Positions 26,107 through 54,340 of a stretch of 64,000 nt of DNA are shown in pieces. The position numbers and the translations under genes are program-made. The stretch's first letter is position 1. Every line of letters begins with the position of its first letter. Origin of the DNA: Cyanidioschyzon merolae (lineage: Eukaryota); the NCBI GenBank assembly GCA_000091205.1, contig AP006497.2; one strand, written 5' to 3'. The notes below the pieces were generated by a model. The model was not told the DNA's origin. It saw nothing but the letters and a program-made list of their open reading frames with translations, and did not search any database.

Positions 26107-26504
26107 GAAAACGGCGCGTTACCTGGCGTTCGGGCTAAGAGGTTCACGCGATCTGTCCACGGATGAATCAGGTTCAGAGCCTCAGCTTTGCTACACCGCT
26201 GAGAACCTGCCAATGGATCTCACCCTTTCTGCAAGAAAGCGCCTCGCAGAGCGGCGTCTAACCTCTTCCAAACAACACCCCGGGCTAACTGCGACGCTGC
26301 CCAGAGCACGAGTGCACAGCAGCGCGGCTTCGACGTCTGCGTTGTGCCGCTGCCGCCGAACTGGCAGCCGCGCCGACGTCCATCCACAGGCGCGATCGCG
26401 TAGGCGGACACGAGCGCCGTGCAGCATGCGTCTATCGGCTGTCAACTCAAGTGTGTTTCATCCGCGGGTGCGTTGCAACGAATGCTTTTTCGCAGGGTAT
26501 AACA

Positions 26505-27893
26505 GGGGATGGAATTCACGATACAATGTACCGTATCGATCGTAGATCAGTTGGATGTCGGATATGGATTCTTTACTGAACAGGGCAAAGAGGACTGCAT
26601 TCCGCCTTCGGGTCTCTCATAGGGTCGTACTCAAATGGCTGAGGAATATTGAAAGAAACGTGCAGATGTACTCCGTACCAAAAACTGGTATTCTCTAATA
26701 CTGCTTGCGGTCTATGGTAGAAAACGACCAGTTGATCGCCTTTTGCGGAAGGTAAAAGCGATAATAATAGACACCAGCGGCGTCTCTGTTTCTCAACAGG
26801 TGGTTCATGTGGACGTGAAATCTCTGGGATCCAATCGCAGAAAAAGTACGAGTTCACGCACAGCCATCTTCCACGGAAATCGCAACTACGGAATTCCTGG
26901 AACGTCAAGATCGGTATGAAGTAGACGAACGTCAATTTGTTTCTGCAGAAGATGTGAGTTCCTTCTGAGGAAACGATCGGAACGTCTATCGGTACGCGCG
27001 GAGCAGGGCACCAGTTTTGTGTACGATTGAATTCGAAGAGAACGGCGACATCATCTGCTCTAGGCGCAGTGGATTCATTTGGCAGCCTCAGCGTCGCTCC
27101 TCGAGAAGGCGCTTACCAAAGCACCCACTTGGTTGAACCATTGAAGATCTTCCCGAATGTCTGGCGAAGGCCTTCCATTGGACAACATACCCTTTCACCA
27201 TTCCACATGCGTTCGAGCTTTTCTTCGATTCTATCGGGGCAGAGCTGCTTTTCATTCCTCCATACCCTCAGAGATTCATCCCCATGAAACAAGTGTTTGC
27301 CATCGTGAAGCGTAATGATCCCTCCACTGCACGAATCCATGAATCGTTCTGCTCACGGTGACTCACAGGGACATATTTCGCCGTCCTTCCGCAAATCTAT
27401 CTCGCTCCTGCAAGGTCCTCAGCTAGGGACATAAAGAAGTGCTTTCATTTTGAAGAAAAAATGTTCAAGGCATGAGCTGAGTTGTAACCTTCAGCAGGTC
27501 GAGCTCGAAACAAGGCAGCCGAGCGCTTCTGCGATAGAAAAGTACGGAAAGCTGATAGACCACCAAATGGTAATGAGGGCACGGCCTCGAGGACTCCTTG
27601 CGCTGGTAAGTTCCACTAGCGGTAGAGCATGCAAGGAGGTCGCGAACCGAGACTGCAACGTCGCCACCAAGATCAGATGATATGCGGTGCCAAAGACGAG
27701 ACTCCCGGAGCTGACGCGATCCAACTTTCTGGGGCAGCCTCTCAGGCTCGAAGGGTGTTCGGATAAAAAATGAAACCTTTAGCAGGAAGCCGGTCAAAAA
27801 ATGCTGAAAGGCCTCTGCCGATGGATATCCATTTCCCCTACAGGGCCGTCGGACATTTTGTTTCACTGACGACGTTTGTATACGCGCAGGTTT
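26505..27893 (+). mobile_element. Non-autonomous (internally deleted) derivative of the Fanzor/TnpB-family element: roughly 0.85-kb left-end region joined to a degenerate C-terminal/RE segment; no intact ORF
   Basis: 26505-27390 aligns (same orientation) with 47352-48240 of the full copy. 27450-27680 translates to RARPRGLLALVSSTSGRACKEVANRDCNVATKIR, a decayed version of KVRGLLAFVSTTNDGKKRMEFVNRDFNAAINIRR. The 3' 200 nt align with the right end of copies at 50400-50613, ending ...gtttgtatacgcgcaggtt. Confidence 0.75.
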
Positions 27894-31879: not shown

Positions 31880-33646
31880 TCATCGGTATTGGGCATGGTT
31901 CTGTTCGCGTATATGGCGGAAGAGCGCGTTCCTCGAAGTGAATAACTCGCTGCACGTCTGGCACTTGTACGCGGCAGGAGCACCAGCGGCAGCAGCGCCT
32001 GCATTTTGCGCTGCCGTTGCTGCTGCGAGATGACGACGACGACGACGATCCTTCGCTGTTTCCGCACGTCGACGGTGTGGTCGGCTGCGCTCGCGATCTC
32101 CCAGGGCCCGCAGCTCGTCCGTATGGGCTGCAGCGTGCGTGCCTGCTTCGATATCTCGGCCCGCGTTCGTTGATTTGCCGTTCATGTGGGCGTCTTGCAT
32201 GGAGCGAGTGCGTTCAGCCTCTTTAGTGGCGCTCTTGGGATCACTTTCAGAATGTGCATTCCTGGTGCCGACTGGAACGGCGAGGTCGTCTTCGATCTCA
32301 TCATCATCATCATCATCGGCATGGTGGCGCCTAGAAACGCTCTGTTCCGATTCAGAAGAAGCCTCGACGGAGCTTGCAGGACGCACACCGGCTTGTTCGT
32401 CTTCTGAACATTGACCCTCGCAGAGCGAGCCGTCCCCGTCAGGCAGCTTTTTTTGTCTCTCGCTGGATGCACGTTGTCGCATCGTCTCGTTGGGGTGCGC
32501 GTCTCCATTCACCACGTCGTAGACGTGATCCTCGTCTCCTGTTGCTTCCACCTGACCCATAATCCGGAATACCTGCACTTCTTCGCCTTTGGCAAGACAA
32601 AGATCCTTGCGAAAGCGTCGTACGCAATCCCGATGCTTCTTGCTATGCTCATGATTTTCCCACTGGGCAAACGTTTTGAAATACTTCTTACACGCAAGGC
32701 ATTGAACACCTTCGATCGTTGGTTGAACCGCATCACTTGCTCCGTGAGGCTGGTTCACATCAGGTGCCTCCTCGCTGATGCCAGCGTACTCCAAATGCTC
32801 CAGTAGCTCCTCAAGATTCGGTATATCCTCTTCAAGCTGCGCAGCAAGCCTCGCCGCATGCAGAGACCGAAGGCGTTCCCACTGTTCTCTTTCCTGGACT
32901 TGTCGTTCTAGCTTCTCAGCTTCTTTTCGTGCTTCTTCTTCCTTGTGTTTCAATACTCGACGATCCCGCTTTTTCACAAAGGCAACGAGCTCTCGCACGA
33001 GCGCTTGGAACTCTCTGCGAGCACGCTCCCGCTCGCGGCGGTTGTCGCGTTCTATGGCCCGTCGAATCTCCCGGTTCGGCGCCTCGCTCGGGTTCCAGGA
33101 GTCCGCAAACGCGAACGTCTTCGCTGATACAAAGTTCTCCCAGAAGTTATAGAAGCGACGTACACTGGGCCAGTCCGCTGTGGCACTGCCGAACGGGGGC
33201 GGCTGTGCGCCTCCGGCTGCCACCTCTTCTCTCGCAAGCTGCTCGAACGCTGCTCCGTATACGTGATAGAAACCTCGTTCTCCGTCTTCGTAGCCATTAT
33301 AAGCAGAAGATCGGAAATATTCATATATATTGAGTTCTGTCGCCCGGTTCACCGTACGCTCTGTACGAGAAGCGGCACCGGTGTCCGTCCCAGGCGCTTG
33401 AGTCGCCTCCAGCGGATCCCGGCCGCGCAGGATATCCTCTCGGTGGTCATCATACCATTTTCGTTCATGTGGGTCTGAAAGCACTTCGTAGGCTCTCCGA
33501 AGCTCCTTGAAAGCCTCCGCTGCCTCTTCTGGTCGGTCGGGATTCTTGTCAGGGTGCAGGCGAAGCGCTGCTCTGCGAAACGCTCGCGTGATCTCCTCCG
33601 CGGTGGCGTCCCGTGGAACACCAAGAACTTCGTAGTGACAGCGCAT
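31880..33646 (-). CDS. J-domain protein with two C2H2 zinc fingers (DNAJC21/Jjj1-like ribosome-biogenesis co-chaperone)
   Basis: MRCHYEVLGVPRDATAEEITRAFRRAALRLHPDKNP...AFKELRRAYEVLSDPHERKWYD (J domain with HPD), CLACKKYFKTFAQWENHEHSKKH and CQTCSELFTSRNALFRHIREQNH (C2H2). The ORF-track extension to 33853 is read-through of the adjacent transposon end, not part of the gene. Confidence 0.85.
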   Translation of the reverse strand: MRCHYEVLGVPRDATAEEITRAFRRAALRLHPDKNPDRPEEAAEAFKELRRAYEVLSDPHERKWYDDHREDILRGRDPLEATQAPGTDTGAASRTERTVNRATELNIYEYFRSSAYNGYEDGERGFYHVYGAAFEQLAREEVAAGGAQPPPFGSATADWPSVRRFYNFWENFVSAKTFAFADSWNPSEAPNREIRRAIERDNRRERERARREFQALVRELVAFVKKRDRRVLKHKEEEARKEAEKLERQVQEREQWERLRSLHAARLAAQLEEDIPNLEELLEHLEYAGISEEAPDVNQPHGASDAVQPTIEGVQCLACKKYFKTFAQWENHEHSKKHRDCVRRFRKDLCLAKGEEVQVFRIMGQVEATGDEDHVYDVVNGDAHPNETMRQRASSERQKKLPDGDGSLCEGQCSEDEQAGVRPASSVEASSESEQSVSRRHHADDDDDDEIEDDLAVPVGTRNAHSESDPKSATKEAERTRSMQDAHMNGKSTNAGRDIEAGTHAAAHTDELRALGDRERSRPHRRRAETAKDRRRRRHLAAATAAQNAGAAAAGAPAAYKCQTCSELFTSRNALFRHIREQNHAQYR

Positions 33647-33686: not shown

Positions 33687-34480
33687 TTATTAGAACCCCA
33701 CCAGAAGAAACGCATTTTCCCACGGAAGCGGCAGCGAACGCCGTTCAACAGTCGAAAGTCGCCAGCAGTGTACAGTAGTTGCGAATGACCTGCCCTAGAC
33801 GAGACACGTCCGAATGACGTGCAGACGCCTCCCAGTATTTTTGGACCGGCCACCGACTACTGGTTCCATTTTTTTCTCATATAATCTAACCTTGAGATGT
33901 TGCCCTGCAAAAATTTCTCTTGTCATCTCTGGAGGCCTCTTGTCCATCACCGCACGTCTCCTGATATTGATAGTGGCATTAAAGTCTCGATTCACAAACT
34001 CCATGCGTTTCCTGCCATTGGTAGTTGTATTCATTAGTGCGAGTAGTCCGCGAATTTTCGCCTTAGTTTCCATTTGCACTTCCGCCAGCGCTTTGTACTT
34101 TTTTACACCCTCAAGGCTCGGCTGACACTGCTCCATCTTGACCTTCTGGAGCGTACACCACAGCTCGTGGCGTATGTTGGATGTTCGGAACTCATATATC
34201 GGTATTGTGACGAAACATCGTGCGCATTCCTTGTACGCTCATTGCGAGTTGCTGTAAACCGGAAACGAAATTCTCCTCGACAAGCCATAAAAGTGGTGTT
34301 GTGGCTTTCCGCCAGACACGGTGGCTGTTTTTGCCGTGTCCATGGTCCCGCAGGCGTGTCCCGGAGTGCGCTGACTCCATAAAAGCCGCGAGTTCGCGCT
34401 GCTGCCCTGGCATCGGGGTGCTGGCGGCTCCACAGCACAGATACCTCATGATGTGCGGGCGAAGCATGCTGCTTCAGCAC
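33687..34480 (-). mobile_element. 5'-truncated copy of the Fanzor/TnpB-family element (RuvC-II, Zn-finger region, RuvC-III and right end retained)
   Basis: Minus-strand translation IYEFRTSNIRHELWCTLQKV...KIRGLLALMNTTTNGRKRMEFVNRDFNATINIRRRAVMDKRPPEMTRE...YEKKMEPVVGGRSKNTGRRLHV; right end aligns with other copies and stops at about 33687, 40 nt upstream of the DnaJ ATG (33646). Confidence 0.8.
33795..34480 (-). pseudogene. C-terminal fragment of the TnpB/Fanzor-like nuclease gene (broken frames upstream of RuvC-II)
   Basis: ORFs 33795..34136 and 34192..34467 are in different frames but collinear with the C-terminal third of copies at 40.5-42.9 kb and 48.3-50.5 kb. Confidence 0.75.
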
Positions 34481-34779: not shown

Positions 34780-35672
34780 GCTAGGCGAGAGCGATCCGTT
34801 TGCGAATCATTTCGGAATGCGAATTCGATGTTCATGAGTGTCTTCCCGTAGTAATGCCTCTTTACTTCAGGTTCGAGGCGCGCCTGTTCGAGTTGGTTTA
34901 GCGCTTGCGTTCGAGCTTTTTGTCGATTCCATCGGGAAGCAGACCTGCTTTTTATTCTTCCTTGCACTCCGTGATTCAAGCCCATCACAGACGTGTTTTC
35001 TATCGTGAAACGTAATGATCGCTGCACTGGGCGAATCGCTGAAGCGTTCTGCACAATCACGTCGGAGCATATATCGTCGTTTTTCAGCAAGTCTTTCTCC
35101 CTCCGGGCAGGTCGTCGACTACGGGCATTCAGAAGTACGTGCATTTGTCGAAATAGAAAATCCATGCGAAAAGTATGGACATGAAAGTTAGGGATCCCGG
35201 AGGGTCGTCATTGCCAGGCGCCGGAAAAATGGATATATTGCTCTCCTCGTCGACCAGTGAGCGAAGAAGAGCAAGCGAAGATGATGACGAAGAAGAAGAG
35301 AATAGATAGGCGAGAAAAGATGGATGCCCGACGAGACGCTGGCGATTCTTTATTAGCACTGACGGCGCGAGTTCTAGCAATCCTGGCAATCGTGCGTTCA
35401 ACCGTCGACGATGCTCGCATGTAGCTCGTGAACCGAGACTTCACTGTCACCATCAATATCAGACGATGCGCGGTGCAGGAAACGATACCCGAGGAGCTAT
35501 GACGATCCAACTTCGTAGGGCATGCGCTCAGGCTCGACGCGTGCCTGGATACACTGAAGCTGCCAGCAGGTGGCTGGTCAGAAAAAATGGGAGGCTTCTG
35601 CACGCGGGCACCAGTTTAACCTCCATGGGCGCGAAATGCCTATCGTTTTACTGACTACAGACGTTCATTCTC
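34780..35672 (+). mobile_element. 5'-truncated non-autonomous derivative of the same family (3' part of left-end region + degenerate RuvC-III/RE segment), head-to-head with the fragment at 33687-34480
   Basis: 34860-35400 aligns with 48040-48520 (gcgttcgagctttttgtcgattccatcggg..., gtgttttctatcgtgaaacgtaatgatcgc..., gacgagacgctggcga). 35420-35500 translates to LVNRDFTVTINIRRCAVQETIPEEL; right end aligns with other copies to about 35672. Confidence 0.7.
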
Positions 35673-38918: not shown

Positions 38919-38919
<1 letters not shown>

Positions 38920-38957: not shown

Positions 38958-39554
38958 CGTTGCGCTGTCACGATCGAATTCGTGACATCACCGCCGCGCT
39001 TCACGGACGGCACACATCGCGCACCATCTACGAGCACATCTGTTTTCGCGCTGTACGCTCTTGAAGAGCAAAAACCAGGTGGCATATGAGGGCCAAGTGG
39101 AAGAAGAAGCGTATGCGCCGCTTAAAGCGAAAGCGACGAAGGATGAGACAACGTAGTAAGTAAGGCTGCTCTTTTCGTCTCCATAAATGTTGGCAGCTTG
39201 GCTCGCAACGTGCACGACAGGCACTCGGGGCGCCAGTTCATGAACGAGCTCGCGGCTGTGTTGCCGGTTTACGTGTTGGGGCGACTCTTTTTAGCTGAGA
39301 GTCGTCGTTGTCGTTGTCATAAATTGCGACACAAAGTATTTGCCGCCTCTTCTTCTCTAGACGGGTGAGTTGAAGCTACGAACTCGGAGGGCACAACTTT
39401 GACCTCGGAAACGAACCAGTTGGAACGGTAACCACTTTTAGCGGTATTATAAACAGGACGGACAGCCTTTTCCCCCGATCACTTGCAAGATGAGACTCTC
39501 CAGAAAACGAGGCGTTCGCCGGTCTCTACGAACACTGGCCGCGTGCCCGCTGCG

Positions 39555-40546
39555 TTAGTGCGTTTGCTGGATCTCCCGTTGAATCTCAGCAAGCGCCAGG
39601 CGCACGTCCCGCTCTGTTACCACCCTGTTTTCTCGTGCACACTCTTGGAAGAGGCTGTACAACCGCCTTTTGGCGGCGCCCCAGGCATATGCGTACTCCA
39701 GCTCCAGCACCCGCTTGCCCTGAATCGAAGGCGGAAACGGAGACATTTCCACGTCGACGGCACCATCCGCAGCCTGTTCCTCATCAAAAAGCCATTCCAG
39801 ATGCGCAGCGTTTCGTTGTGAGCTGCAGGCGTCACATGGACAGACTACCGCCTCCAGTTCCTCCACAGTCACAAATATCGGAGCCATTTGCTCCGACTGC
39901 GTCGACGTGTCGCTGTCAAGTACCGCTTGCGCAATGCAAAGCGGTTTCGACACGCTGCCCGCTGCCTTGGCAGCGGGCACCCATAGCGCCAAGGGGCTGC
40001 AGCTCCGCCGGCACGCAGTGCACACAAGCAGCCCGTCCGTGGAGCCCGTCGTCGCGTCCAGGCCACCGAGGCACTTGACGTGGAACCAGTCCTCACAACC
40101 AATACACTGGTGCATGGTGTCGTCTTTCTCGCCTTGATACTCGGCGTCACATACACAGAACCTGTTTCGAGCGTTGTGATGCTCTCGCAGCCACCACACC
40201 TGAGAGGTCGGCAACGGCGCAGCGGCAACGTCGCTTAGCGCACAGTGCGGAGGCGCACACTGGCATACGAGTCCGTGCTTGTTTCCCAGCGCAAACGTGT
40301 CGTGGTCTGCGTGGCAGGCATCCGCACACGCCTGGCATACGATGGACGGTAAACTGGGGCCCTCGGGCAGCGCTGCCCGCGTCGTGCACGTCCGACAGAC
40401 ACACACTGCTATTGCACGTTCTGCTTGAGAGCGCTCGCGAGCACACTGCCAGTTGTGCTCTGGACACGCAGCACTGACTAGGTCCTCCAAGGTCACCACA
40501 TCCTCTGAGTCTTCGACTGAACCGAGAGCGTGCTCACTAGACCCCA
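39555..40546 (-). CDS. UBR7-like zinc-finger protein (N-terminal Cys/His-rich zf-UBR-like cluster + PHD finger)
   Basis: CVCDAEYQGEKDDTMHQCIGCEDWFHVKCLG...CTAC (C4HC3 PHD); upstream cluster CVCRTCT...CQACADACHADH...CQC; first ATG at about 40546 (the ORF-track start at 40574 is a TTG). Confidence 0.5.
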
Positions 40547-40574
40547 TGCTTCGGGCGCCGTGGCAAAAGTGCAA

Positions 40575-43090
40575 ACCCCTGGAAACAAACGTCTTTCAAA
40601 AGAAAAACGATGCAGCCTGCGGTATACAGAAATGGCGCGCAGCGCGCCCGAGTCAGAACGTCTCCAGCTGACGTGCAGTCGCCTCCCCGTCTTTTTGGAC
40701 CGGCAACCTACTACTGATTCCAACTTTTTTTCATATAATTCCACTTTGGGAGGTTTTCCAACAACGTTCTCTCTTGTCAACTCTGGAGGTCTTTTCTCGA
40801 GCACCGCACATCTCCTTATATTGATGGCGGCGTTAAAGTCTCGGTTCGCAAACTCCATACGTTTCTTGCCATCATTGGTTGTACTTACTGATGCAAGCAA
40901 TCCTCGAACTTTCGCTCTCCTTTCCATTTGCTCTTCCGTCAGCGCTCCGTACTTTTTCGTATCCTCAGGGCTCCGCTAGCACTTTTCCATCTCCACCCTC
41001 TGAAGTGTACACCCCAGTTCATGGTGTGTATACGATGTTCGAAACTCATCCATTGGTATCGTAACGAAACGCCTCGCGCACTCCTTGTACGTTCTTGTCG
41101 TTGGAGCTGGAGTAGTCCCTTTTTGGGTCTTCCAGCGCCCTGCTCCGTACCCTGCTACGAGCCTCTGACTTTTATCCTCCTTCAGGGCACTCAACTGATT
41201 GAAAAAACTCTCGAACGCACGCTGCTTACCACACTATAGATTCATTCGCAAACGAGCCCACCGGGGCTTGGTATACTCCTCCCACAATGCATTCCAATGA
41301 GCAACGCGAACTTCCATGAATTTCCGAAAAGCTTTAAAGTCCGCTCCTCGGCTCGTCACCTCGCTCACAGCTTCCAGGTGCTCGTTCATTCCTGCATTCC
41401 ATTTCTCGATTTTCTTCCTCGTATTCATGATTCCCGATTCTCGATGGTATCTCGCTCTCGAGAACCTCAAAAGACGCATATCTTTCTGATGCAAGGTACC
41501 GTCAGTACCATCTTCCCCACGCTTCGGTGCTGCGATGGTTATGATACTTGTGTTTCCAGCGTCCGCGCCAACGACAAAGTCGTTCTCGTGCATCTTCTGT
41601 GTCGCAGGACCCGCCTTCTTCTCATCTTCATGGTTCTCCGAGGGCGGAACGGGCCGATCCACACTCAACCGCCGATAGTGTATGCACCTGGCTACTCCAT
41701 CGGTTTCGATCATCCCAGTGAATACCTTTTGTCTGCTTACTTTCAGACGTTTGAAATCGAAGATACTCTTCCGGGGCATCTCCCGGTTTTCGTCGGTGAA
41801 CTCCTCCCTGCGAACATCGAACTCCGGACAGATCTCCTTCAAGATGCCATGAAGGATTCTCGAGTCCATAGTCACAAAATGTGACTTGATATTGCAAATT
41901 GGAACCATGTTGAAGCGCTTCCCCATTAGGGCCGACTTCCGCCTCTCCCACTCTTTATTTGTCTCCTCACTCAGCTTCCTCTCTGCCTGGCGTTCGAGTT
42001 CTCGGTCCAGAACCACAGAATAGCGCAGGACGAGGCGATAGTATCTTTCCTTAACTTTTTTTCAACTCTGATATCTTTTCTGTTGGATTCGCCAGCTCCA
42101 AGACTGCACGGTGCTCTTGTATTACGGCACGGATGACGGAGTCCTCATTCATGCTCTGGTTTGACGCCTTCTTGTCGACGAATTCGATCTCATCTTCATG
42201 CTTACGATCGTTCGTGGTGCCATTGAGGTCCGCCTATACTCCATTGCGAGAGATGCGCGGGTAGCGTGCAAACACGGCACGTATCATGAAACGTTCGAGG
42301 TTCATTGTCAAATGGTTCTTCAGATTCGTGAGGTATTTCATGGCCCCATAGTCCTAAATATCCCGGTCACCCCTATACCGAGTACCCTCGAAGCGGAATT
42401 CCGGGAAGGTTTCGTGGAGGACATGCACTGCTCATTTTCCCTCCGCGCTTTCGCTGTACCAAGCATCAGGTGACGAATAAACGTCGTGTCGAAGAATTCT
42501 TCCGGAATCTCGACTGTTTCCATGTGCGTCACGTCGCGATACATCTCCTTCACCAAATGCATCAGTCCTATAGAGTCCATACGAACCCTCGTGAAGTACG
42601 AATCAACATAATTTCTGATGGCCTCTCGCAGATTTTGCTTGTGCGGATCCTGAATATGGCCTAGATGGCATGATTTCTTTACAATCTTGAAGTAGGGTCG
42701 TCTTTCGAGTTGCATTTGGCGCCGGGCCCCCCCTTGTTTTGCGTCATCGTCGTGTCTTGTTTCTCTTCGGTCGGTATTCTTTTTCGCTTTTTCCGCTAGC
42801 CGGCGACGCTGCCCCTCCAGGATCCTCCACTTCCTTTTCCATAACTTTCCTCTTTTATTTTTTTGTAACGCACTTTGAACGCTTCTGCTATAAACCGCGA
42901 AAAAAACACGAGAATACACTTGTTTGAGGTTTGAGACACAAATGAACGGAAAAACTGTACTTTGCTACAACTTTAACGCAAGTACAACTTTTATATTAGA
43001 GCAGCACGCTATTGATCAGGATCGCGTTTCCCTTCAGCTGCGGGATGCGCGTCGTGACTCGAAAACTAACAGATCTCCCTGGTGCGCAAA
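40575..43090 (-). mobile_element. Near full-length copy of the Fanzor/TnpB-family element (copy D), with a truncated left end
   Basis: Collinear on the minus strand with copy 47352-50613 from the N-terminal basic region (42919) to the right end (acccctggaaac at 40575-40586); about 75-80% nucleotide identity. Confidence 0.85.
40660..42919 (-). pseudogene. TnpB/Fanzor-like RuvC nuclease gene, inactivated (at least 3 frameshifts, 2 in-frame TAG stops)
   Basis: ORFs 42338..42919, 41234..42016, 40976..41194 and 40493..40927 form one collinear protein: N-terminal KRKWRILEGQRRRLAEKAKKN (basic), [17 protein letters not shown] (RuvC-I), IPMDEFRTSYTHHELGC (RuvC-II), NRDFNAAINIRRC (RuvC-III). TAG replaces Tyr at 41234-36 and Gln at 40976-78 relative to the other copy. 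Confidence 0.85.
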
Positions 43091-43574
43091 TCGATAGCGC
43101 TATGTAGAACAAAGAACAGAGACTCACGACTAGCGAGCAACGATACAGCAATTTCTCTCCCGTTCTACGATAAACGTTGAAAACGGGGAAAAGGTTCCCA
43201 TATTCTGAAGAGTCCTCCCTCTAGGCGAAAAGTCCCGCGAGCCGGACGAGTCTCCCGGACTCGTGCTTCGTGCTCCACCCAGTAGCGGGCGCTGTGGCGA
43301 GACCTGAGCAGTTCGTCCGCAACGCGGTTCATTCTGGGACTAGATGCGGGATGCTGTGTTTGGTCGTCGCCCTGATCGCAGTAGACTCCTAATATATCGG
43401 TTCGCGCTTTCGCAGGCAGTAGTTCTGTCTGTTTAGCCTACAGGCTCCCAGAATTATTCTGGACTCCAACGCTGTATCAGGTAAAGCGTTCCTCAATCCG
43501 TCGCCCTCAGTGGTATGGCAACGCTGTTCTATCTCCATGATGCATCCGTCCCAGTGGTATAGGCGCTAAGGCGG

Positions 43575-44200
43575 GTGCCCAAAGCAGGCACTCGGTCGCA
43601 CTACAGAACGCACAAAACGATCTGTACATCCGAAAGGAAGTATAAGGAACGGAGCATGGAGGTAGAGTGCATCATGATGGACACTTTTTCGATCAGCTAT
43701 ACCCATCCATCTCGCTATCTGGAATCCAAGTACAATGTAAACGTTTTGTCATTGGAGAGAAATCAGCGGCAACAGCAAATGCAGCGGATTTTGTTCCATG
43801 TGAAAACTTCTCACACAGGCGAGCGTGCCGCGACTCTGTGTGCTTGCTACCTGCGCGCGGTGAAACTTTCGTCGTTCCACGCTTTACGTCCGAGTTTCAT
43901 AACCCATACTTCTTCTCGGATGTACTGGCGTTTCAGACGTACTATCGGGCGCCGAGTGCCTGCCCGTGAACATCCGCCTCAATAGCGCTTGTAGCGCCGG
44001 TGCTGTCGTAGCACAGAAACAGAACGGCGTTGCCGTACCGCAGACGGCGTCTGCTCGAGGCATGCTTCACCTGACGTAGAACTGGGTCTCGTTGTCAGGT
44101 TGTGCTCGGACAGCCTGCGGATGCAAAACTTGCTTTCGCTGCACAACACATTGGAGAAACTTGGCTGTTACGATGAATCCTGGGAGCCGCCTCTCTCCTG
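43575..44200 (+). repeat. Dispersed repeat D (about 0.6 kb) lying 0.5 kb upstream of petC
   Basis: 43860-44200 aligns at roughly 80% with 54000-54340 (for example aatagcgcttgtagcgccggtgctgtcgtagcacag...gagaaacttggctgttacgatgaatcctggga); weaker similarity extends to 43660 / 53690. Confidence 0.75.
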
Positions 44201-44701
44201 CGTGATCGTACATGGAAAGCGTCGCCCTCGGTTGGCGACTCGGGTCTGTGCTTGGCACCCACCAGTGAGTAGGTACGCGTAACACTGGTCCCGTGTGCGC
44301 ATCTGGTTTGCTGGACCTTCCACCTAGAAGGTAGAGTATGAGTTCGCTGACCACTGGTGAGTGCTGGAGCTCAGTTACGGGACCATCAGTTGCTAGCACT
44401 ACACTCAAAGTAAGTGGCTGGCCTTCATTTACCACAGTGATTCCCAGATGTTAATGTCTCTCAAAGAGATAGCTGCGTTCTTTTTTTCCAGCACAGGCAC
44501 AGAAAGCTTAAGTGTGCTGGCGTCTCTGGCATCCCGATTCCGCTGCACCGAACGCCGCGATCCTTCGAAGCCCTGCATCGCGAGCACGCTGCCGCCCATC
44601 GTCGATGATCACGAAACGATTTTTCCGTTCGTGTTGCATGAACGTTTGCGTTCTTACTTGATTGCAACTCGCAGTTTCATTGTTGTGTATAACGCTGGAT
44701 A

Positions 44702-46668: not shown

Positions 46669-47351
46669 GGCAAAAACGCAACTCGTGAACGTCCCCCGGC
46701 TGCTGGGTTTTCCTCTCGCAACAAGCTCGACTCGAAAGGCAGCGAGATGTCTACCGAAACATTCCAAGCGTTTTACGGATCAGTGCGCCCTCAGCAGCGC
46801 CGTGCGGAAAAGCGCTCTGAACGATTGGATGGGATCCAGATGCCTATGCTGCAGGGTATTTCCTGTGAATGCAGAGCACTCGTTTCCGGTTTCTATGTTG
46901 CCGTCGCATGCACAGGTGTAAGCGGACAGTGAATTGACCTCTTGCGCTGCACTCGTGAAATGTCGAGCACGAATTCATCCATGTCAAACTGAAATGGTAT
47001 TTGCCGCAAGCTTCCCATGAAGAGGCATTTGCTGGTCGCATTTGGACTTTGGAAGCGATGCTGAAGACAAGTTCATCGCCGCGAACTCGCGTTGGAGCGG
47101 GATGCTTTGGCATTTCGCGACTGCAAAGCAACGTTCAGTGAGTGCTGGTGAGTGCCAGCACGCACATGCCAGCACCATGCCCTGAACAGACCCAGAAAAC
47201 GAATCGACGCGAATGTTTAGCTGCTTTTTCACCAGATGTGTCATATTGGCATCTATCGGATGCGTGAACGCTACCATCAAAGAGGCCCGAGGTTTCCGTT
47301 CTTGTAGTCTTTGTACTAAATTCTGTTTCACTTCCGCTGCGATGTCTAGAA

Positions 47352-50300
47352 GGAGATCGAAATCACAATGCAATGCATAGTGTAGATCGTAGATGATTTG
47401 CATGTAGCATATACATTCATTTCTGAACAGTGCAAGGAAGACTGTATTCCTCGTTTAGGACAGTCATACCACCGTACTCAGATGGTTGGCAAACACTGTA
47501 AGAAAAATGTAGATGCACTCCGTGCCAGAGATCGATATTCATTGAGGTCGCTTGCAGTCGATCTTAGAAAACGATCCGTTGATCACCATTTTCGGAAAGC
47601 AACAGCGACGATAATAGCCGCCACAGGCGTCACCGTTTCTCAACAGCTTATTCTTATGATCCCGAAAACATTGGGATACAATCTCAAAAAAAGTCATCGT
47701 TCAAGCAAAGGCATCTTCCATCCAAATCGCAACGACAGAGTCCCTGGAACGTCACGATCGATAGGAACCACTGGATCGTCAGTTTGTTTGTTCAGTTGAT
47801 GAAAATTGCTTCAGAAGGCACGCTCGGAGCGTCAATGGGTATTCGAGGTGAAGGGCGCCCGTTGTACGTTCGATCGAGCTCGAAGAGAACGACGAAATCA
47901 TCATCTATTATAGCTTTAGAAGATTTATTTGGCGGCCTCAGTTTCACTTGTAGAAAAGACACATGCAACAGCACCAACCAATTTGTCCAAGCATTGAAGA
48001 CTTTTACCCGACGTCTGGCGACGTCCTTCTATTGGGCAACGTGGCATATCACCATATCGCTTGCGTTCGAGCTTTTTGCCGATTCTATCGGGGTAGGGGT
48101 GATTTTTGTTCGTCTGTGCGCTCCGTGGTTCAAGCGCATTGTAGGAGTGTTTTCTATCGTGAAACGTGATGATCGCTCCCCCGGGCGAAACGCTGAGCGT
48201 TCATCACTCGGTAACACATCGGGGTACATGCCATTTATCTTGCGAAAGCCACGCTCCCTCCGAGAAAGCCCTCATCTAAGGGCAAAAAACGTGCGGTCGT
48301 TTTGACGAAATAAAACTCCAAAACAAAGCTATGCACGTGCAAGTCGGGGATCCTGAAGGGCCCTTGCCGCCGGCTGGCAGAAAAAAACGAAAAATTCTGC
48401 CAATGGAATAGGAACAAAACAGAACGAAGAAGCAAAAGGGCGAGGCCCGACGTCAAAAGCTGCGCGAAAGACGACTATGCGACGAGACGCTGGCGAAAGC
48501 CTGTCTTGGTAACCATATCAAGGATTCGGACAAGCAAACATGCAACAAGTCATCCGAGACCGTGTCGAGTCGCACTCCATGAGTATTGTAAAGGATTCTT
48601 CAGGACTAATGCCTTTGACGAAGGAGATGAATCGCGGCGTGACGGGCATCAAAACAGTCGAGGTTCCGGGAGAATTTTTCAACACCATCGTTATGCATCA
48701 CCTGATGCTTGGCACAGGGGAAACGTCGAGGAGAAAGGAGCGAATGCATGCCCTCCACAAAATTACCCCGAATACCCTTTTCATCGGTAATCGATACCGG
48801 CGTGACTCGGATATTTACACGTACGGGGCGAAAAAGTACCTCACGAACCTAAAGAACCATATGAACATGAACCTCACACGTTTCATGATACGTTCCGTCT
48901 TCGCGCTGGACCCGTGCCTCTTTCGCAAAGCGATAGACGGGTTACCATCAATGGCATCTCGAACGATAGTAAGAACGAACAGGAGATCGAACTCGTCGAC
49001 AAGAAGACCTCGCACAGGAGCATGAATGAGGCTTCTGTCATCCGCGCGGCTATTCAAGAGCACCGTGCACTCTTGGGGCTCGTTGACCCAGCAGAACAGG
49101 TATCAGAGATGAAAAAGATGGAAAAAGAAAGATGTTACCCACACTTCCTGCGCTATTTCGTGTATTTGGACCAAGAACTCGAACGCAAGGCTGGGATGGA
49201 GCAGGGTGTGCGGAAAAATGCAGAGTCGGTAGAACGGAAGGCTGCGCTTGCGGGTACGCGCTTCGAAGTCGTTCGGTTATGCGAGATCAAGTCGCACTTT
49301 GTGACAATCGACTCCAGAGTCCTTTACGGAATACTGAAGGAGATAAGTTCGGGGCTCGATGTACGCAACAAGGAGTTCACCGGTGAAAATCGGGACACGT
49401 ACTGGACGCATGTCTTCGACGTCAAGCGTCTCAATACGAGCCAGAAAAGGTATTCAGAGGTGTCATCGAAACTAAATGAGTAGCCATGTGTGCACACGAT
49501 CGGCGCTTGAAGGCAGATCGTCATATCGTGCCTTCGGCTTCGCCCGTGACGAAGCATGAAGATGTGAAGCAGGCGGATCCCGCGACGCAGGAGGTTCAGG
49601 ATACTGGCTTTGGCGGCGGCGCGGACCCTGGGATGACGAATATCATAACGATCGCAGCACCGAAGCGTGCGGGAGATGGTGCTGATGGTAACCTGCGTCA
49701 GATAGAAATGCGTCTCTTGAGGTTCTCGAGACCGAGATACTACCGAGAATCCGGTTCAATGAATGCGAGGAAGAAAATCGAGACATGGAATGCAGGAGTC
49801 AAGGATCAGCTGGAAGCTATGAGCGAGGTGACGATCCGACATGCGGACTTTCAAGATCTGCCAGAGTTCATGGACACTCAAGCTGCTCATGTCGAGGAGC
49901 TGCGGAAAGAGTATCGAAAACAAAGGTGCGCTCGTCAGCGTTTGAATCTGTACAGAGAGAACCAGCGTGCATACGCCAACGATTTCAATCCGTTGAGCGC
50001 CTTGAAGGAGGACGAGAGTCAGAGGCTGGTAGAAGCGTATGGGGCAGCGCGCTAGCTGGCCCGAAAAGGGACTACGCCAGCTCCAACGACAAGAACACTC
50101 AAAGAGCGTACACGGCGTTTTGTTACGATACCAATAGGTGAGTTCCGAACATCGTATACACACCATGAAGTGAGGTGCGTACTTCAGAGGGTCGAGATGG
50201 AAACGTGCCAGCGGAGCCAAGAGGATATAAAAAAGTACAGACCGCTGACGGAGGAGCAAATGGGAAGGAGGGCAAAAGTTCGCGGACTCCTTGCATTCGT

Positions 50301-50613
50301 GAGTACAACCAATGATGGCAAGAAACGCATGGAGTTTGTGAACCGAGACTTTAACGCCGCAATCAACATCAGAAGATGTGCGCAGCTGGAGAAAAGACCT
50401 CCAGAGTTGACACGAGAGAGAATTTTGTCAGACGACCTCTCAAGGTCGAAGTATACGAGAAAAAGTTGAAACCAGTAGCAGGTGGCCGGTCGAGAAAGTC
50501 GGGAAGGCGTCTGTACGTCGGCGTATAGGCATCCGATCTGCGGCGCGCCGCTCGCCACTCCTGTACCCCTAGCGACAGCGTTTTTCTTGTGAAAGGCGTT
50601 TGTTTCCAGGGGT
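47352..50613 (+). mobile_element. Full-length copy of the Fanzor/TnpB-family element (copy E): roughly 1-kb non-coding left-end region, nuclease gene, roughly 90-nt right end
   Basis: Left-end region shared with 26505-27390 and 34860-35400; ORF segments 48331-50525; right end gtttttcttgtgaaaggcgtttgtttccaggggt conserved in all five copies, ending at about 50613. Confidence 0.85.
48331..50525 (+). pseudogene. TnpB/Fanzor-like RuvC nuclease gene, inactivated (at least 3 frameshifts, 1 in-frame TAG)
   Basis: ORFs 48540..49025, 48914..49483, 49486..50055 and 50170..50469 lie in frames 0/2/1/1. Motifs: PAGRKKRKI (NLS-like), GGGADPGMTNIITIAAP (RuvC-I), IPIGEFRTSYTHHEVRC (RuvC-II), NRDFNAAINIRRC (RuvC-III). 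TAG at 50053-55 where copy D has Trp. Confidence 0.85.
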
Positions 50614-50652
50614 GCCCAGGGGGTCGCTTTAGCCTAGCTTTTGGTCTCGAAA

Positions 50653-52743
50653 ATGCCTCAATGGGACAAGCGCGCCAGACAGCGAAGAAGCAACCAGTCT
50701 CGTTGGCGTCGGGAACCATGGGAGACGCAGGAAGTCGCTTCACCGTTAAGTTGGCTCTGCTTGCCTGCGCGTGTGCTAGCGTGCTTTGGCTCACCTCCGA
50801 GCGAAGAGCTCGCTGAGTCGGCGCAGCCGCCCGACGACATTGTGCCTTGGGAGGACTCCGAAACCGCCGACTCGTCTTCTCAAAGCAGTTTTGGTGGCTC
50901 TGATGAAGGTGCGCGCCAAGAGCTTGCGTGCCGTACGCGAGCGGAGAAAGTGGACGGCAACGGCGCTGGCACCGAGAACGACCAGGATGAGCAACTATCC
51001 GTCGAGCTGGACGCGCTTCGTCGACGTCGCTCCTTCTCGGCCACGAGCTTCCACTTGCCAGCTGTATCCCGTCCAACAGCGGCAGGTAGCATTGTCGACA
51101 TACCGTCAGAGCGTCCACAGACCGCGCAACGCAGAGAACGTCAACGTATCGTGGGCAAGTTGGCGCTCGTTGGGCTCGGTACTCAGCTTCTGCTGCTCAG
51201 CTTGAAGTTGTACAGATTTGAATCGCTCTCACCAGCGTATCTCGTTTTTTCCGTCGCGTTTTTCGTGTTCAGCGGAGGACTTGCTTTCCTGAGTCTCCAC
51301 TACTTTAAAATGGGGCGCCTGCCACCTTTTCTGGATGTGGCTGCAAAACGGCGAGAAGCGTCGCACAACCGTTCGTGTGGGACAAGCCCGGCCCGCTCCA
51401 ACACCGACTCGACGATGCGTACGCTGAGCGGAGCGGGTTCGGCGTTCAGTACTCCAACGGCGGACAGATCGCCATGCACGCCCAAGTCTCGAATTGCCTC
51501 GCGCTCTCGAGAGTACGCTCAAAGCTTCCAAGAAAAAGGCGATGCGCAGGTCGTCAGAACGTCATTTGACTCGCGATCAAACCGACGAATCTTCTCAGTG
51601 CTGGGTGTCGAGAGCTCGCAGTCATTTTGCGAGCAACAGGGGTGCAGTACAAGAATGCCGAGCAAGAGTCGACCGGCAGCGATACGAATCGACGTTACCA
51701 GCGAGCGTACCGCGGCAACATCAGCGAGCGATGACGCAGTTAGTGCGGACAACATCGCCGTGTCCGTCAGAGAGCCGTCCACGCTCTCTGATGCCGATGC
51801 TGATCATACAGAGCATGGTATCGAGAAGCGTCGCGGCACCTTCCGCGAAAAGCCCGGCCAGCGAGGCACGCCCGGTGTTCGCGCTGCTGTTGCCGAAACC
51901 CAGCGACGACATGTGCAGCGGGCGACAGAAACTCGTAGCGCCGGCGCACCGGCCTTGCCGGTACCAGACGCTTCGGACCAGATGAGAGCTGGCGCATCCT
52001 TAGAGCAACGGCGTCGATCCCGCGAGGCATCCTCTCTGTCAGACGACGGAACGCCTCCCGAAGTGCAAATTGAGTCACTGCGTATTGTAGAGAGTTGGGA
52101 GAAGATGCGTATAACAGCAAAGAAGGAAATCTTAGCGGAAGATTTTTGCGAGGGAATGCTCAGTCTATTGAGCGTCATCGATGCATTGGGTCCCGCTTTT
52201 CGAATCATCAAAATCGACATTCGAAATCATGTGAATGGGATCCACCGCAGCTGCACGAAACACAACTGCCGCACCCTGCAGCGCCTCATTGATGCAGAGT
52301 CGAATCGGGTATCACGCTGGTTGAATCCATCGGGCATTGGCGATGGTACGGAACATGTGCTCTGGATGAAACGGGCCATGCAGTTTGTGTACATGCTGTT
52401 GTACATGTTTTTGGATGGCATCGATTTAGACCGGTGTGTATACCATGCATATCGCATGACGCTGCGAGCCTGTCACCCGTACATTGTCCGGAAAGTAGCG
52501 GAGAACCTGCACCGCTTCGTCCCTACCAGAGCTGGCTTTTTGCGCAGAATCCACGCAGATGAGGACTTTGTTTTAACGCAAATGCGGCGATTCTTGAAGG
52601 CAATCGAACCGCGTCTTGATATTATCGTTGAGGTATTCAACGCAAACCAGCTGGAACCGCACTGTCGATTCTCATGCGCAGAATTGCGCCGGCTGGCACA
52701 GCACTGTGCAAAATATGATATCGACGAGGATATGACGCAGTGA
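50653..52743 (+). CDS. Membrane-anchored protein with a C-terminal glycolipid-transfer-protein (GLTP) domain
   Basis: C-terminal 200 aa: LSVIDALGPAFRIIKIDIRNHV...HVLWMKRAMQFVYMLL...AYRMTLRACHPYIVRKV parallels the GLTP fold (LWLKRGLKF...AYxxTLxxxHxWxVR). A transmembrane stretch LALVGLGTQLLLLSL...FFVFSGGLAFLSLHYF precedes it. The ORF-track start 50641 is TTG; first ATG is at about 50653. Confidence 0.55.
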   Translation: MPQWDKRARQRRSNQSRWRREPWETQEVASPLSWLCLPARVLACFGSPPSEELAESAQPPDDIVPWEDSETADSSSQSSFGGSDEGARQELACRTRAEKVDGNGAGTENDQDEQLSVELDALRRRRSFSATSFHLPAVSRPTAAGSIVDIPSERPQTAQRRERQRIVGKLALVGLGTQLLLLSLKLYRFESLSPAYLVFSVAFFVFSGGLAFLSLHYFKMGRLPPFLDVAAKRREASHNRSCGTSPARSNTDSTMRTLSGAGSAFSTPTADRSPCTPKSRIASRSREYAQSFQEKGDAQVVRTSFDSRSNRRIFSVLGVESSQSFCEQQGCSTRMPSKSRPAAIRIDVTSERTAATSASDDAVSADNIAVSVREPSTLSDADADHTEHGIEKRRGTFREKPGQRGTPGVRAAVAETQRRHVQRATETRSAGAPALPVPDASDQMRAGASLEQRRRSREASSLSDDGTPPEVQIESLRIVESWEKMRITAKKEILAEDFCEGMLSLLSVIDALGPAFRIIKIDIRNHVNGIHRSCTKHNCRTLQRLIDAESNRVSRWLNPSGIGDGTEHVLWMKRAMQFVYMLLYMFLDGIDLDRCVYHAYRMTLRACHPYIVRKVAENLHRFVPTRAGFLRRIHADEDFVLTQMRRFLKAIEPRLDIIVEVFNANQLEPHCRFSCAELRRLAQHCAKYDIDEDMTQ

Positions 52744-53589: not shown

Positions 53590-54340
53590 CTAAACTGTGA
53601 AAGCGACAGCAAATGCGCCCACGCAGAGCCAGGTGTCGATCATCGGAGAATGTCCGAGCGACTGCGAGCGTGCCTGTTTGCATCGCTGCGCGCCTCCGCG
53701 CGTAACCGCTATGTTTTTCGTGGAATACGACGTCTGCGATGAACCTGAATATCTCGAGTACGTGATTGTTGTCGGCAACGAGAAAACAGGCGACAATTCC
53801 TTTTCAGATGGTTTGATGCTTCACGCCTGCCAGCACAGTCTCTCGATTCGAACATAGGATTCGACTCAACGACTTTTGGGCTACAGTGCTCACTCGACGG
53901 TAAGCTCGCCACGACATCCGATTCTTTTCATGGACAAAACGTTTCCATCGGCCAGCGTTCTCCGATTACGCGCATTTTTCTTTTCTTACTTTTTTTGTGT
54001 TTTTTTTTCAGTGCGCGGTGAGGTATCCACCAAATCCCCTACTTCCATGTTACATTACCTGCACTTCGTCTCGGATATTCTGGTCGTTTCATACGTCCTA
54101 TCGTGTGTGCCTAGTACCTGCCGAAAGCGACAGCAATAGCGCCTACAGCGCCAGTGCGGTCGCTGCACGGAGACAGAGCGGCGTTGCCGTAACACAAAGG
54201 GCGGCGGCTCGAGGCGTGGCTCACCCGACGTAGAATCGGGTCTCGTCGTCAGTTTGTGCTCGGAGAGTCTGCGGATGCAGGCTTGTCTTCGCAGCACGAC
54301 ACGCTGGAGAAACTTGGCTGTTAGGATATATCCTGGGAAC
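53590..54340 (+). repeat. Dispersed repeat D, second copy, about 0.4 kb upstream of the kinesin gene
   Basis: Aligns with 43575-44200 and (T-rich core) with 10990-11160. Confidence 0.75.

What the first reader, a model, noticed from the sequence alone, without database searches (positions are those of the whole stretch)
50525..50660. All three ORF-bearing copies end 28-40 bp upstream of the start codon of a co-oriented host gene
Three right ends sit just upstream of a co-oriented host start codon. Copy E's right end at about 50613 precedes the GLTP-protein ATG at 50653. Copy D's right end at about 40575 precedes the UBR7-like ATG at 40546, both on the minus strand. Copy C's right end at about 33687 precedes the DnaJ ATG at 33646, both on the minus strand. 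In each case the nuclease gene and the host gene are co-directional, so the omega-RNA/guide region would run straight into the host 5' leader. Three explanations are possible. It could be target preference for promoter-proximal DNA. It could be exaptation of the right end as promoter or 5'-UTR. Or it could be survivorship in a compact genome. The three flanks share no obvious motif, which argues against strict sequence-specific homing.
Basis: inference. Interest (0 to 1): 0.6.

Follow-up and report, generated by a model that had tools for sequence, protein, structure and literature searches.

The report
Fanzor right ends abut gene starts
Decayed copies of a Fanzor (RNA-guided nuclease) transposon in a hot-spring red alga sit with their guide-RNA end only tens of bases upstream of same-direction host genes far more often than chance allows, so the element either targets gene starts or supplies their leaders.

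Summary
Copy D ends at 40575, 27 nt before a PHD-finger ORF (ATG 40547). Copy C is only a 525-nt 3' fragment. It ends near 33721-33724, not 33687, which is 74-77 nt before the DnaJ ATG (33646). All three are pseudogenes. They are the only copies in the window with a recognisable right-end core.

I surveyed 35 further dereplicated sites from metagenomic contigs of the same or a sister red alga. The right end faces a co-oriented ORF in 23 sites and lies within 100 nt of its first ATG in 12. Random intergenic placement predicts about 5% (P=4e-8). The neighbours are unrelated housekeeping genes. The left end is never that close to a start codon.

The pattern is therefore family-wide and specific to one end. 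My favoured explanation is oriented insertion into the zone just upstream of start codons, with the right end transcribed as the new leader. Exaptation as a promoter remains a serious rival. Pure survivorship is unlikely. I found no description of this bias in the searchable literature.

The parts
47343..50613 (+). Copy E: a decayed Fanzor1 element. It has a ~1-kb left module (47343-48324), a Fanzor pseudogene (48412-50427, frames 1/3/2/1) and a right end.
   Evidence: Self-blastn and all-vs-all blocks. tblastn with P0001. ORF list.
50502..50600 (+). Conserved right-end core of E (putative omega-RNA scaffold 3' part), ending ...GAAAGGCGTT.
   Evidence: nhmmer with a 98-position RE profile, 51 bits. 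Alignments A2 and A3.
50580..50597 (+). Terminal stem-loop of the right end (GTTTTTC-TTGT-GAAAGGC).
   Evidence: RNAfold of the last 34 nt in 36 copies. About 30 form this hairpin, in two versions that differ by a compensatory G:C to T:A change.
50601..50613 (+). 13-nt tail TGTTTCCAGGGGT. It is shared with D, L094 and (one mismatch) the L035/L064/L077/L090 site. It is probably the true end of the element in this subfamily.
50614..50652 (+). 39-nt spacer between the element end and the host start codon. This is all that remains of any native leader.
   Evidence: Sequence.
50653..52743 (+). Host ORF of 696 aa with a C-terminal GLTP domain (aa 495-634).
   Evidence: Pfam PF08718, E=2.4e-23.
40575..43766 (-). 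Copy D: a decayed Fanzor1 element. The left end starts ATGACAAAACGTTTACATTG at about 43752. The Fanzor pseudogene spans 42763-40757. The RE core is 40687-40588.
40548..40574 (-). 27-nt spacer between the right end of D and the host ATG.
39555..40547 (-). Host ORF of 330 aa with a PHD finger. It is syntenic with a 330-aa gene in relatives.
   Evidence: Pfam PF00628. Synteny.
33721..34245 (-). Copy C: a 525-nt 3' fragment only (Fanzor residues 641-752 plus the right end). The RE core is 33833-33737.
31880..33646 (-). Host DNAJC21-like ORF of 588 aa. The J domain spans aa 4-66. An upstream in-frame ATG lies at 33715.
   Evidence: Pfam. Homologues and synteny. ORF scan.
26433..27837 (+). Copy A: an internally deleted derivative (E-type left module plus Fanzor residues 662-752). 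It has no recognisable RE core and is not next to a co-oriented start codon.
34904..35608 (+). Copy B: an internally deleted derivative with no recognisable RE core. It faces the 3' end of the Omp85 gene.

Best explanation
Copies C, D and E are dead copies of a ~3.2-kb non-autonomous Fanzor1 transposon. It resembles CMe-1A of Cyanidioschyzon merolae in size and layout: a ~0.9-kb non-coding left module, one Fanzor1 gene, and a ~200-nt conserved structured right end that overlaps the C-terminus of the ORF. That right end would encode the omega-RNA scaffold.

Shown: in this family the right end, and only the right end, lies within 0-100 nt of the first ATG of a co-oriented and otherwise unrelated host gene in about one third of sites.

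Inferred mechanism: the element integrates in a strand-specific way into the short zone between the core promoter or transcription start and the start codon. Transcription-dependent single-stranded or open DNA is the most plausible cue. Such insertions survive because the right end can be transcribed as the new 5' leader of the host mRNA.

Geometry forces part of this inference. With only 0-40 nt of native sequence left before the ATG of essential genes, those mRNAs must begin inside the element or upstream of it. Any omega-RNA guide would be the host's own leader sequence.
For: Identity: a profile of 10 family members matches PDB 9cf0 (Parasitella Fanzor1) at E=5.5e-7, across the ETDGV block, DPG (RuvC-I), DEFRTS (RuvC-II) and NRD..A.N (RuvC-III). 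Bao & Jurka 2013 (PMC3627910) describe CMe-1A as ~3 kb, ~150 copies, without TIRs or TSDs, and with a 5' part that is also a separate repeat. The window shows the same layout.

Placement: among 35 dereplicated sites outside the window, 23 have a co-oriented neighbour and 12 a convergent one. In 12 sites the first ATG lies within 100 nt of the RE core, and in 7 within 40 nt. The nulls are 0.048 and 0.020, giving P=4e-8 and 5e-6. P is still 9e-5 if the null is doubled. Five loci fetched afterwards, chosen blind to context, all have a co-oriented neighbour. In the four with a recognisable RE core it lies 6-130 nt away.

End specificity: the left end faces a start codon in 10 sites and is never closer than 118 nt (Fisher P=0.005). 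The element sits at the downstream end of its intergenic region in 14 of 17 cases.

Neighbours: they are unrelated to one another. They are ordinary genes with canonical N-termini. These include a UBC E2 (domain from aa 12, ATG 17 nt after the core), RNase P Rpr2 (64 nt), ATP synthase beta (93 nt), alpha-tubulin (157 nt) and DnaJ (90 nt).

Little erosion: most surveyed copies are still 2.8-4 kb and ~10% from the consensus. Wholesale loss of 300-500-nt spacers after insertion is therefore unlikely.

Ancestry: syntenic PHD-Omp85-DnaJ regions of related species carry no Fanzor sequence. The insertions are lineage-specific, not ancestral promoter parts.
Against: No empty site or presence/absence polymorphism was found, so the insertion point is not directly observed.

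The pyrimidine-rich TTTTCG-like motif that precedes the left end is not enriched upstream of start codons, so no sequence cue explains the position.

The most intact copies (779, 759 and 619 open codons) and the youngest copies (92-95% identical to a paralogue) are all far from a co-oriented ATG. They lie 104-843 nt from a convergent gene, or 437 nt from a co-oriented ATG. That fits retention better than insertion bias, although n is only 5.

Orientation alone is not significantly different from 50:50 (23:12, P=0.09).

Genes were called as ORFs of at least 150 aa from the first ATG. Only the best 80 of 211 candidate loci were retrieved, which favours the more complete copies. No transcript data exist.
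Confidence: 0.45

Rival explanations
1. Exaptation with retention. Insertions landed anywhere in intergenic DNA. Where the right end happened to face a gene, it supplied an outward promoter or leader. The native promoter then became dispensable and was deleted, and the right-end-proximal part of the element has since been protected from deletion.
For: This explains why only the right end abuts start codons. Copy C survives only as its 3' 525 nt. In another sample the same DnaJ locus keeps only the last 27 nt of the right end plus the leader. The youngest and most intact copies are not adjacent to co-oriented starts.
Against: The right-end core is no better conserved in gene-adjacent copies than in others: 0.81 versus 0.82 identity to consensus, Mann-Whitney P=0.44. 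Between samples, the right end diverges more than the rest of the element, not less. The elements themselves are barely eroded, so removal of several hundred nt of spacer in a third of sites is hard to reconcile.
Confidence: 0.27
2. Pure survivorship in a compact genome. Insertion is random, and copies persist only where they do no harm. By chance this leaves many just upstream of genes.
For: Intergenic regions are short, with medians of ~400-700 nt. All copies lie in intergenic DNA.
Against: The zone within 100 nt upstream of an ATG should be among the most harmful places to insert, yet it is enriched ~7-fold. The effect is absent for the left end (0 of 10) and weaker for convergent neighbours, whose median distance is 410 nt.
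Confidence: 0.08
3. Guide-directed site choice. The Fanzor-omega-RNA complex of a parent copy cuts sites whose sequence matches the seed of its guide. The element is then copied into the break, so daughter flanks resemble the parent's flank.
For: The first ~14 nt after the conserved core are A-poor with consensus TGTTGTNGG and similarity that decays with distance. Four sites with unrelated flanks share TGTTTCCAGG(G/A)GT. A pyrimidine-rich motif precedes the left end, where a TAM would lie.
Against: The shared 13 nt follow element subfamily (L094 is D-type), as expected if they are simply the end of the element. The idea does not explain proximity to start codons. Composition upstream of ATGs is not G/T-rich. 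No precedent is known to me (my own knowledge).
Confidence: 0.07
4. Artefact of gene calling or sampling. First-ATG ORF calls and dereplication errors create apparent adjacency.
For: Some starts are uncertain. ATP synthase beta has a 126-aa extension, and the DnaJ ORF has an upstream in-frame ATG.
Against: The null used the same ORF caller on the same contigs. Starts anchored by domains (UBC, DnaJ, Rpr2, tubulin) give 17, 90, 64 and 157 nt. Neighbours are unrelated to one another. Doubling the null still gives P=9e-5.
Confidence: 0.03

Closest known systems
CMe-1A Fanzor1 family of Cyanidioschyzon merolae (Bao & Jurka 2013, PMC3627910)
   Same: The host is a red alga of the same class. The element is ~3 kb with a single Fanzor1 ORF, and no TIRs or TSDs could be found. 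Copies are old, at ~80% pairwise identity. The 5' part also exists as a separate short repeat (TE-N2_CMe there; left modules F and G here).
   Different: The CMe-1A consensus was not available, so sequence-level membership is untested. The paper says nothing about position relative to genes. Two alternative left modules occur here (D-type and E-type).
TnpB/IS200-IS605 and Fanzor omega-RNA (fRNA) architecture (Karvelis 2021; Saito 2023; Jiang 2023)
   Same: A conserved structured non-coding region overlaps the 3' end of the nuclease ORF and runs to the right end. The guide would be the adjoining flank. A short motif sits next to the left end.
   Different: No transposase is present in the element. 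The RNA is not demonstrated and has no Rfam match. The window copies are pseudogenes. The published descriptions I searched report no bias toward host start codons.
Promoter-proximal or 5'-end insertion preference of other eukaryotic transposons (P element, Mutator, mPing, Tf1, Hermes; from my own knowledge)
   Same: Enrichment just upstream of genes, in open promoter DNA.
   Different: As far as I know, those biases are not tied to one end of the element. They are also typically spread over hundreds of nt rather than 0-100 nt from the ATG.
Bacterial insertion sequences with outward-facing promoters, and domesticated TnpB relatives (TldR) whose guides target host promoters (PMC10705468)
   Same: A mobile-element end adjoins a host gene start. 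A guide RNA is complementary to a host promoter or leader.
   Different: Those systems are prokaryotic. TldR proteins are nuclease-dead, conserved host genes, whereas the copies here are decaying transposons.

Membership tests
Fanzor1 (eukaryotic TnpB homologue) | Sequence or profile similarity to characterised Fanzor1 proteins | tested here: met
   A profile of A1 matches PDB 9cf0 (Parasitella parasitica Fanzor 1) at E=5.5e-7, over profile positions 53-383 plus a second, C-terminal stretch (456-530; 6.1 bits, not significant on its own). Single-sequence searches of Pfam, NCBIfam and PDB were negative.
Fanzor1 (eukaryotic TnpB homologue) | RuvC catalytic motifs (D...E...D) | tested here: met
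   GADPGNTNI, VDEFRTSYT and NRDFNAAINI are conserved in the family. In copy E they read GADPGMTNI, GEFRTSYT and NRDFNAAINI.
Fanzor1 (eukaryotic TnpB homologue) | Intact nuclease ORF | tested here: not met
   E, D and C are interrupted by frameshifts and stops or are truncated. Intact relatives exist elsewhere: L004 has 779 open codons and P0001 is 752 aa.
Fanzor1 (eukaryotic TnpB homologue) | Associated omega-RNA encoded at the right end | tested here: inconclusive
   A conserved ~200-nt 3' region has a terminal hairpin in two covarying versions and a conserved AGTAGT/ACTACT complementarity. RNAalifold found no covariation. Folding z-scores are weak (-1.6 and -0.1). There is no Rfam hit.
Fanzor1 (eukaryotic TnpB homologue) | RNA-guided DNA cleavage | not testable with these tools
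   Requires biochemistry.
CMe-1A family | ~3-kb element, single Fanzor1 ORF, no TIRs, no detectable TSDs | tested here: met
   Element lengths are 2.8-4.1 kb. No TSD appears in 10 left/right flank pairs.
CMe-1A family | 5' part shared with an independent short repeat | tested here: met
   Left modules occur alone in the window (F, G) and in the loci.
CMe-1A family | Nucleotide identity to the CMe-1A consensus | not testable with these tools
   Neither the consensus nor the C. merolae genome is in the accessible collections.
IS200/IS605-like (HUH, single-strand) transposition | Y1/HUH transposase | tested here: not met
   No second ORF with any family hit lies in the element. Gene tables of L001 and L002 show none.
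IS200/IS605-like (HUH, single-strand) transposition | Subterminal hairpins, no TIR or TSD, short target motif 5' of the left end | tested here: inconclusive
   A right-end hairpin is present. A pyrimidine-rich or TTTTCG-like motif precedes the left end in 8 of 10 flank sequences shown (8 distinct sites). The left-end structure was not examined.

The most novel reading that the evidence does not exclude
The right end of this Fanzor1 family is functionally coupled to host transcription initiation. One possibility is that the element integrates strand-specifically into DNA opened at transcription starts, as a transcription-coupled, single-strand-dependent OMEGA transposon in a eukaryote. The other is that its omega-RNA end acts as a portable leader or promoter that now drives a sizeable fraction of housekeeping genes. 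Either way, each copy's guide would be the 5' leader of the neighbouring gene.
Probability: 0.25. Interest if true: 0.8.

Novelty: new variant of a known kind. Interest (0 to 1): 0.6.

Why it matters
What Fanzors do for their transposons in eukaryotic cells is still open, as is how their guide RNAs get transcribed and terminated. This family shows a strong bias that is specific to one end. The omega-RNA end is placed 0-100 nt upstream of co-oriented housekeeping genes.

The bias gives a concrete handle on those questions. It predicts host mRNAs that start in or read through the right end. It predicts Fanzor and omega-RNA transcripts that run into host genes. It also predicts guides that match host leaders.

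All of this can be tested directly in Cyanidioschyzon, which is transformable and intron-poor, using TSS mapping, small-RNA sequencing and reporter assays. If the right end proves to be a promoter or leader donor, it would be a case of an RNA-guided-nuclease transposon rewiring gene starts in a minimal eukaryotic genome.

Tried and rejected
- **Direct family searches.** Pfam, NCBIfam and single-sequence PDB searches of the element proteins gave nothing. Only a profile search worked.
- **Rfam.** A search of 49800-50800 gave only chance-level hits.
- **Consensus RNA structure.** RNAalifold on 32 right ends gave a weak structure with no covariation.
- **Target-site duplications.** Comparison of left and right flanks found none.
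- **Host promoter motif.** I tested whether GGCGTTTGTTTCCAGG is a host promoter motif. It occurs only in D and E in the window.
- **Left-flank motif.** I tested whether the TTTTCG motif is enriched in sense orientation upstream of start codons, which would explain the placement. It is not enriched in 88 repeat-free upstream regions.
- **Age and intactness.** Copy intactness and nearest-paralogue identity against adjacency gave too few young copies to decide.
- **Extra constraint on the right end.** Gene-adjacent copies show no difference from others. Between-sample orthologues show a divergence hotspot in the right end rather than conservation.
- **Presence/absence polymorphism.** None was found among orthologous contigs.
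- **Exact-protein look-up.** A look-up of a window ORF to identify the source found nothing on record.
- **Passenger genes.** The downstream ORFs are not carried by the element, because they are unrelated to each other.
Full report
**What is at the coordinates**

Window 50525-50660 holds three things: the last ~90 nt of a repeat copy, a 39-nt spacer, and the first codons of a long ORF. Self-comparison defines one repeat family with several copies:
- A, 26433-27837 (+)
- B, 34904-35608 (+)
- C, 33721-34245 (-)
- D, 40575-43766 (-)
- E, 47343-50613 (+)
- two fragments that consist of the left module only: F, 43855-44536, and G, 53918-54338

A conceptual translation stitched from E and D finds 70 relatives. 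Almost all come from JGI metagenome contigs, and one is a full-length 752-aa protein, P0001. Single-sequence searches of Pfam, NCBIfam and PDB were negative. A profile of ten relatives matches the solved Parasitella parasitica Fanzor1 (9cf0, E=5.5e-7). The match covers the ETDGV block and the DPG, DEFRTS and NRD..A.N RuvC motifs. The family is therefore Fanzor1.

The window copies are dead. E runs through frames 1, 3, 2, 1. D runs through frames -1, -3, -1 with internal stops. C keeps only residues 641-752. A and B keep only C-terminal scraps.

The host is a cyanidiophycean red alga. Its DNAJC21-like protein is 53% identical to that of Cyanidiococcus yangmingshanensis. The gene order PHD-Omp85-DnaJ-ThiF-importin is shared with that genome and with JGI relatives. 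Bao & Jurka (2013, PMC3627910) described a similar family, CMe-1A, in Cyanidioschyzon merolae. It has about 150 copies of about 3 kb, no TIRs and undetermined TSDs, and its 5' 635 bp also exists as a separate repeat.

**Anatomy of the right end**

I aligned the 3' regions of the window copies and of 80 metagenomic loci. The alignment shows a conserved block that overlaps the C-terminus of the ORF. A representative copy reads ...GGGAGGCGTCTGCACGTCAGTTGGAGACGTTTCGTCTAGGGCGCG..CGCCACTACTGTACAC..., then a terminal hairpin, then GGCGTT.

About 30 of 36 copies fold into this hairpin. It comes in two versions, CGTTCGA-CTT-TCGAACGGCG and CGTTTTTC-TTTT-GAAAGRCG, which differ by a compensatory G:C to T:A change.

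After GGCGTT come about 13-16 less conserved, A-poor nucleotides with consensus TGTTGTNGG. Beyond them the flanks are unrelated. D, E, L094 and (with one mismatch) the L035/L064/L077/L090 site share TGTTTCCAGGGGT there. L094 belongs to the D-type subfamily, so I treat this tail as the true element end.

Evidence that the region is an omega-RNA is only circumstantial. An intact copy folds with a long-range AGTAGT/ACTACT helix, but the z-score is only -1.6. RNAalifold finds no covariation. Rfam has no match.

A 98-position profile of the core finds only C (33833-33737), D (40687-40588) and E (50502-50600) in the window.

**Checking the observation**

| Copy | Element end | Host ORF and ATG | Gap from element end | Gap from core |
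|---|---|---|---|---|
| E | 50613 | GLTP-domain ORF, 50653 | 39 nt | 52 nt |
| D | 40575 | PHD-finger ORF, 40547 | 27 nt | 40 nt |
| C | about 33721-33724 (not 33687) | DnaJ, 33646 | 74-77 nt | 90 nt |

- The host ORFs were identified by Pfam.
- For C, the DnaJ ATG is secured by the J domain at residues 4-66. An in-frame upstream ATG at 33715 lies 5-8 nt from the element end.
- All three pairs are co-oriented.
- A and B lack a right-end core and are not adjacent to co-oriented starts.

**Is it more than chance? A survey**

The retrieved loci carry copies 75-88% identical to D and E. That is the same range as among the loci themselves. All copies are about 10% from a common consensus.

Method:
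- I located each right-end core with the profile.
- I dereplicated sites by their flanks.
- I called the nearest ORF of at least 150 aa from its first ATG.
- Six more loci covering five further sites, chosen only for contig length, were added later. One of the five has no recognisable core and is not counted.

Results, excluding the window:
- 35 sites have a called neighbour.
- The right end faces a co-oriented ORF in 23. Distances from the core are 1, 6, 17, 18, 38, 38, 39, 50, 64, 90, 93, 99, 107, ... 437 nt, with a median of 99.
- It faces the 3' end of a convergent ORF in 12, with a median of 410 nt.

A null of random position and orientation in repeat-free intergenic DNA of the same contigs, with the same ORF caller, gives P(co-oriented and within 100 nt) = 0.048 and P(within 40 nt) = 0.020. 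The observed counts are 12 of 35 and 7 of 35. These give P=4e-8 and 5e-6, and still 9e-5 if the null is doubled. Orientation alone is not significant against 0.5 (P=0.09).

**The neighbours are ordinary host genes with credible starts**

The 23 downstream proteins share no similarity with one another. They include:
- a UBC E2 enzyme, with the domain from residue 12 and the ATG 17 nt after the core
- RNase P Rpr2 (64 nt)
- mitochondrial ATP synthase beta (93 nt)
- glycerol-3-phosphate dehydrogenase (1 nt)
- alpha-tubulin, starting MREVISLHIGQAG (157 nt)
- a DEAD_2 helicase (437 nt)

Only a few to a few tens of native nucleotides remain before such ATGs. The host mRNAs must therefore begin within the element or upstream of it. 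This is an inference from geometry, not an observation.

**End specificity**

Where the left end faces a start codon (10 sites), the distance is 118-870 nt and never below 100 nt (Fisher P=0.005). In 14 of 17 elements with both neighbours known, the element sits in the downstream half of its intergenic region, often at the extreme end.

**Attempts to separate the explanations**

- The left end starts ATGACAAAACGTTT. It is usually preceded by a pyrimidine-rich TTTTCG-like motif, and no TSD is present. That motif is not enriched in sense orientation upstream of start codons, so it does not explain the placement.
- The most intact copies (779, 759 and 619 open codons) and the youngest (92-95% to a paralogue) are all far from a co-oriented ATG. 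This favours retention, but n is about 5.
- The right-end core is no better conserved in gene-adjacent copies.
- Between samples, orthologous copies differ by about 1%, against 0.3% for host genes. A 4-5% hotspot lies 50-150 nt before the core end. This argues against strong constraint, but it may be assembly noise.
- The elements are still near full length. That makes large post-insertion loss of spacers unlikely, although the retrieval favoured complete copies.
- The syntenic regions of related species hold no Fanzor sequence, so the insertions are lineage-specific.
- A 2.2-kb contig from another sample is identical to the window from the last 27 nt of C's right end through DnaJ, but unrelated upstream. 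It could be a structural variant that keeps only the hairpin and leader, or a contig-end chimera.
- No presence/absence polymorphism was found.

**Most likely mechanism**

I favour oriented integration into the zone just upstream of start codons, with the right end tolerated as the new leader (0.45). The cue may be transcription-opened or single-stranded DNA. That would fit an element without TIRs or TSDs and with a subterminal hairpin, but this step is inferred only.

The rivals are:
- Exaptation of the right end as promoter or leader, with retention (0.27). It explains the end specificity and the C fragment, but it lacks any conservation signal.
- Pure survivorship (0.08). It predicts depletion next to ATGs, not enrichment.
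- Guide-seed-directed site choice (0.07). The G/T-rich tail suggests it, but the tail is more simply the element end.
- A calling artefact (0.03).

**Comparison and novelty**

The elements resemble the known Fanzor1/CMe-1A kind in layout, though sequence identity to the CMe-1A consensus could not be tested. What is not described is the family-wide adjacency, specific to the right end, to co-oriented host start codons. It is absent from Bao & Jurka 2013, Saito 2023 and Jiang 2023, and from the full-text searches I ran.

Caveats:
- Gene models are ORF-based.
- The survey is partial, covering the best 80 of 211 candidate loci.
- The data are metagenomic assemblies.
- There are no transcript data.
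- The omega-RNA is unproven.

Noticed in passing
window 1457-1985 (-) and 20290-21015 (+): tblastn with P0001 finds two further, much more divergent Fanzor-like remnants (27-37% identity over residues 465-752). The second is co-oriented with the ORF that starts at ATG 21675.
   Followed up: no
window 43855-44536 (+) and 53918-54338 (+): Fragments F and G consist of the left module only and resemble solo TE-N2_CMe. Both also lie upstream of co-oriented ORFs: ATG 44702 is 165 nt away and ATG 54724 is 385 nt away. F is head-to-head with copy D.
   Followed up: partly
L083:1-94 versus window 33764-33900: A 2173-nt contig from another sample is 100% identical to the window from the last 27 nt of copy C's right end through DnaJ. 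Its first 94 nt match nothing in the window or the loci. It is either a structural variant that retains only the terminal hairpin and leader, or a contig-end chimera.
   Followed up: partly
orthologous locus pairs, e.g. L045/L049, L053/L054, L016/L017; 50-150 nt before the right-end core end: Between-sample divergence is 4-5% in this 100-nt stretch, against ~1% in the rest of the element and ~0.3% in host genes. This could be a real hotspot, gene conversion among copies, or mixing of paralogous reads in assembly.
   Followed up: partly
window 50601-50613 and 40587-40575; L094:9006-9018; L077:10294-10306: The 13-mer TGTTTCCAGG(G/A)GT follows the right-end core at four sites with unrelated flanks. 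One of them has the other hairpin type. Family-wide, the first ~14 nt after the core are A-poor with consensus TGTTGTNGG.
   Followed up: partly
window 47343-48324 versus 42849-43766: E and D carry two unrelated ~0.9-1-kb left modules ahead of the same Fanzor gene. Both module types also occur on their own elsewhere in the loci.
   Followed up: partly
L084-L088 and window 31880-40547: The gene order PHD(330 aa)-Omp85-DnaJ-ThiF-importin is conserved between the window, JGI relatives and Cyanidiococcus yangmingshanensis GCA_013995675.1. The Omp85-DnaJ spacer is 1.2-1.3 kb there and 2.9 kb here, where it holds copies B and C.
   Followed up: yes
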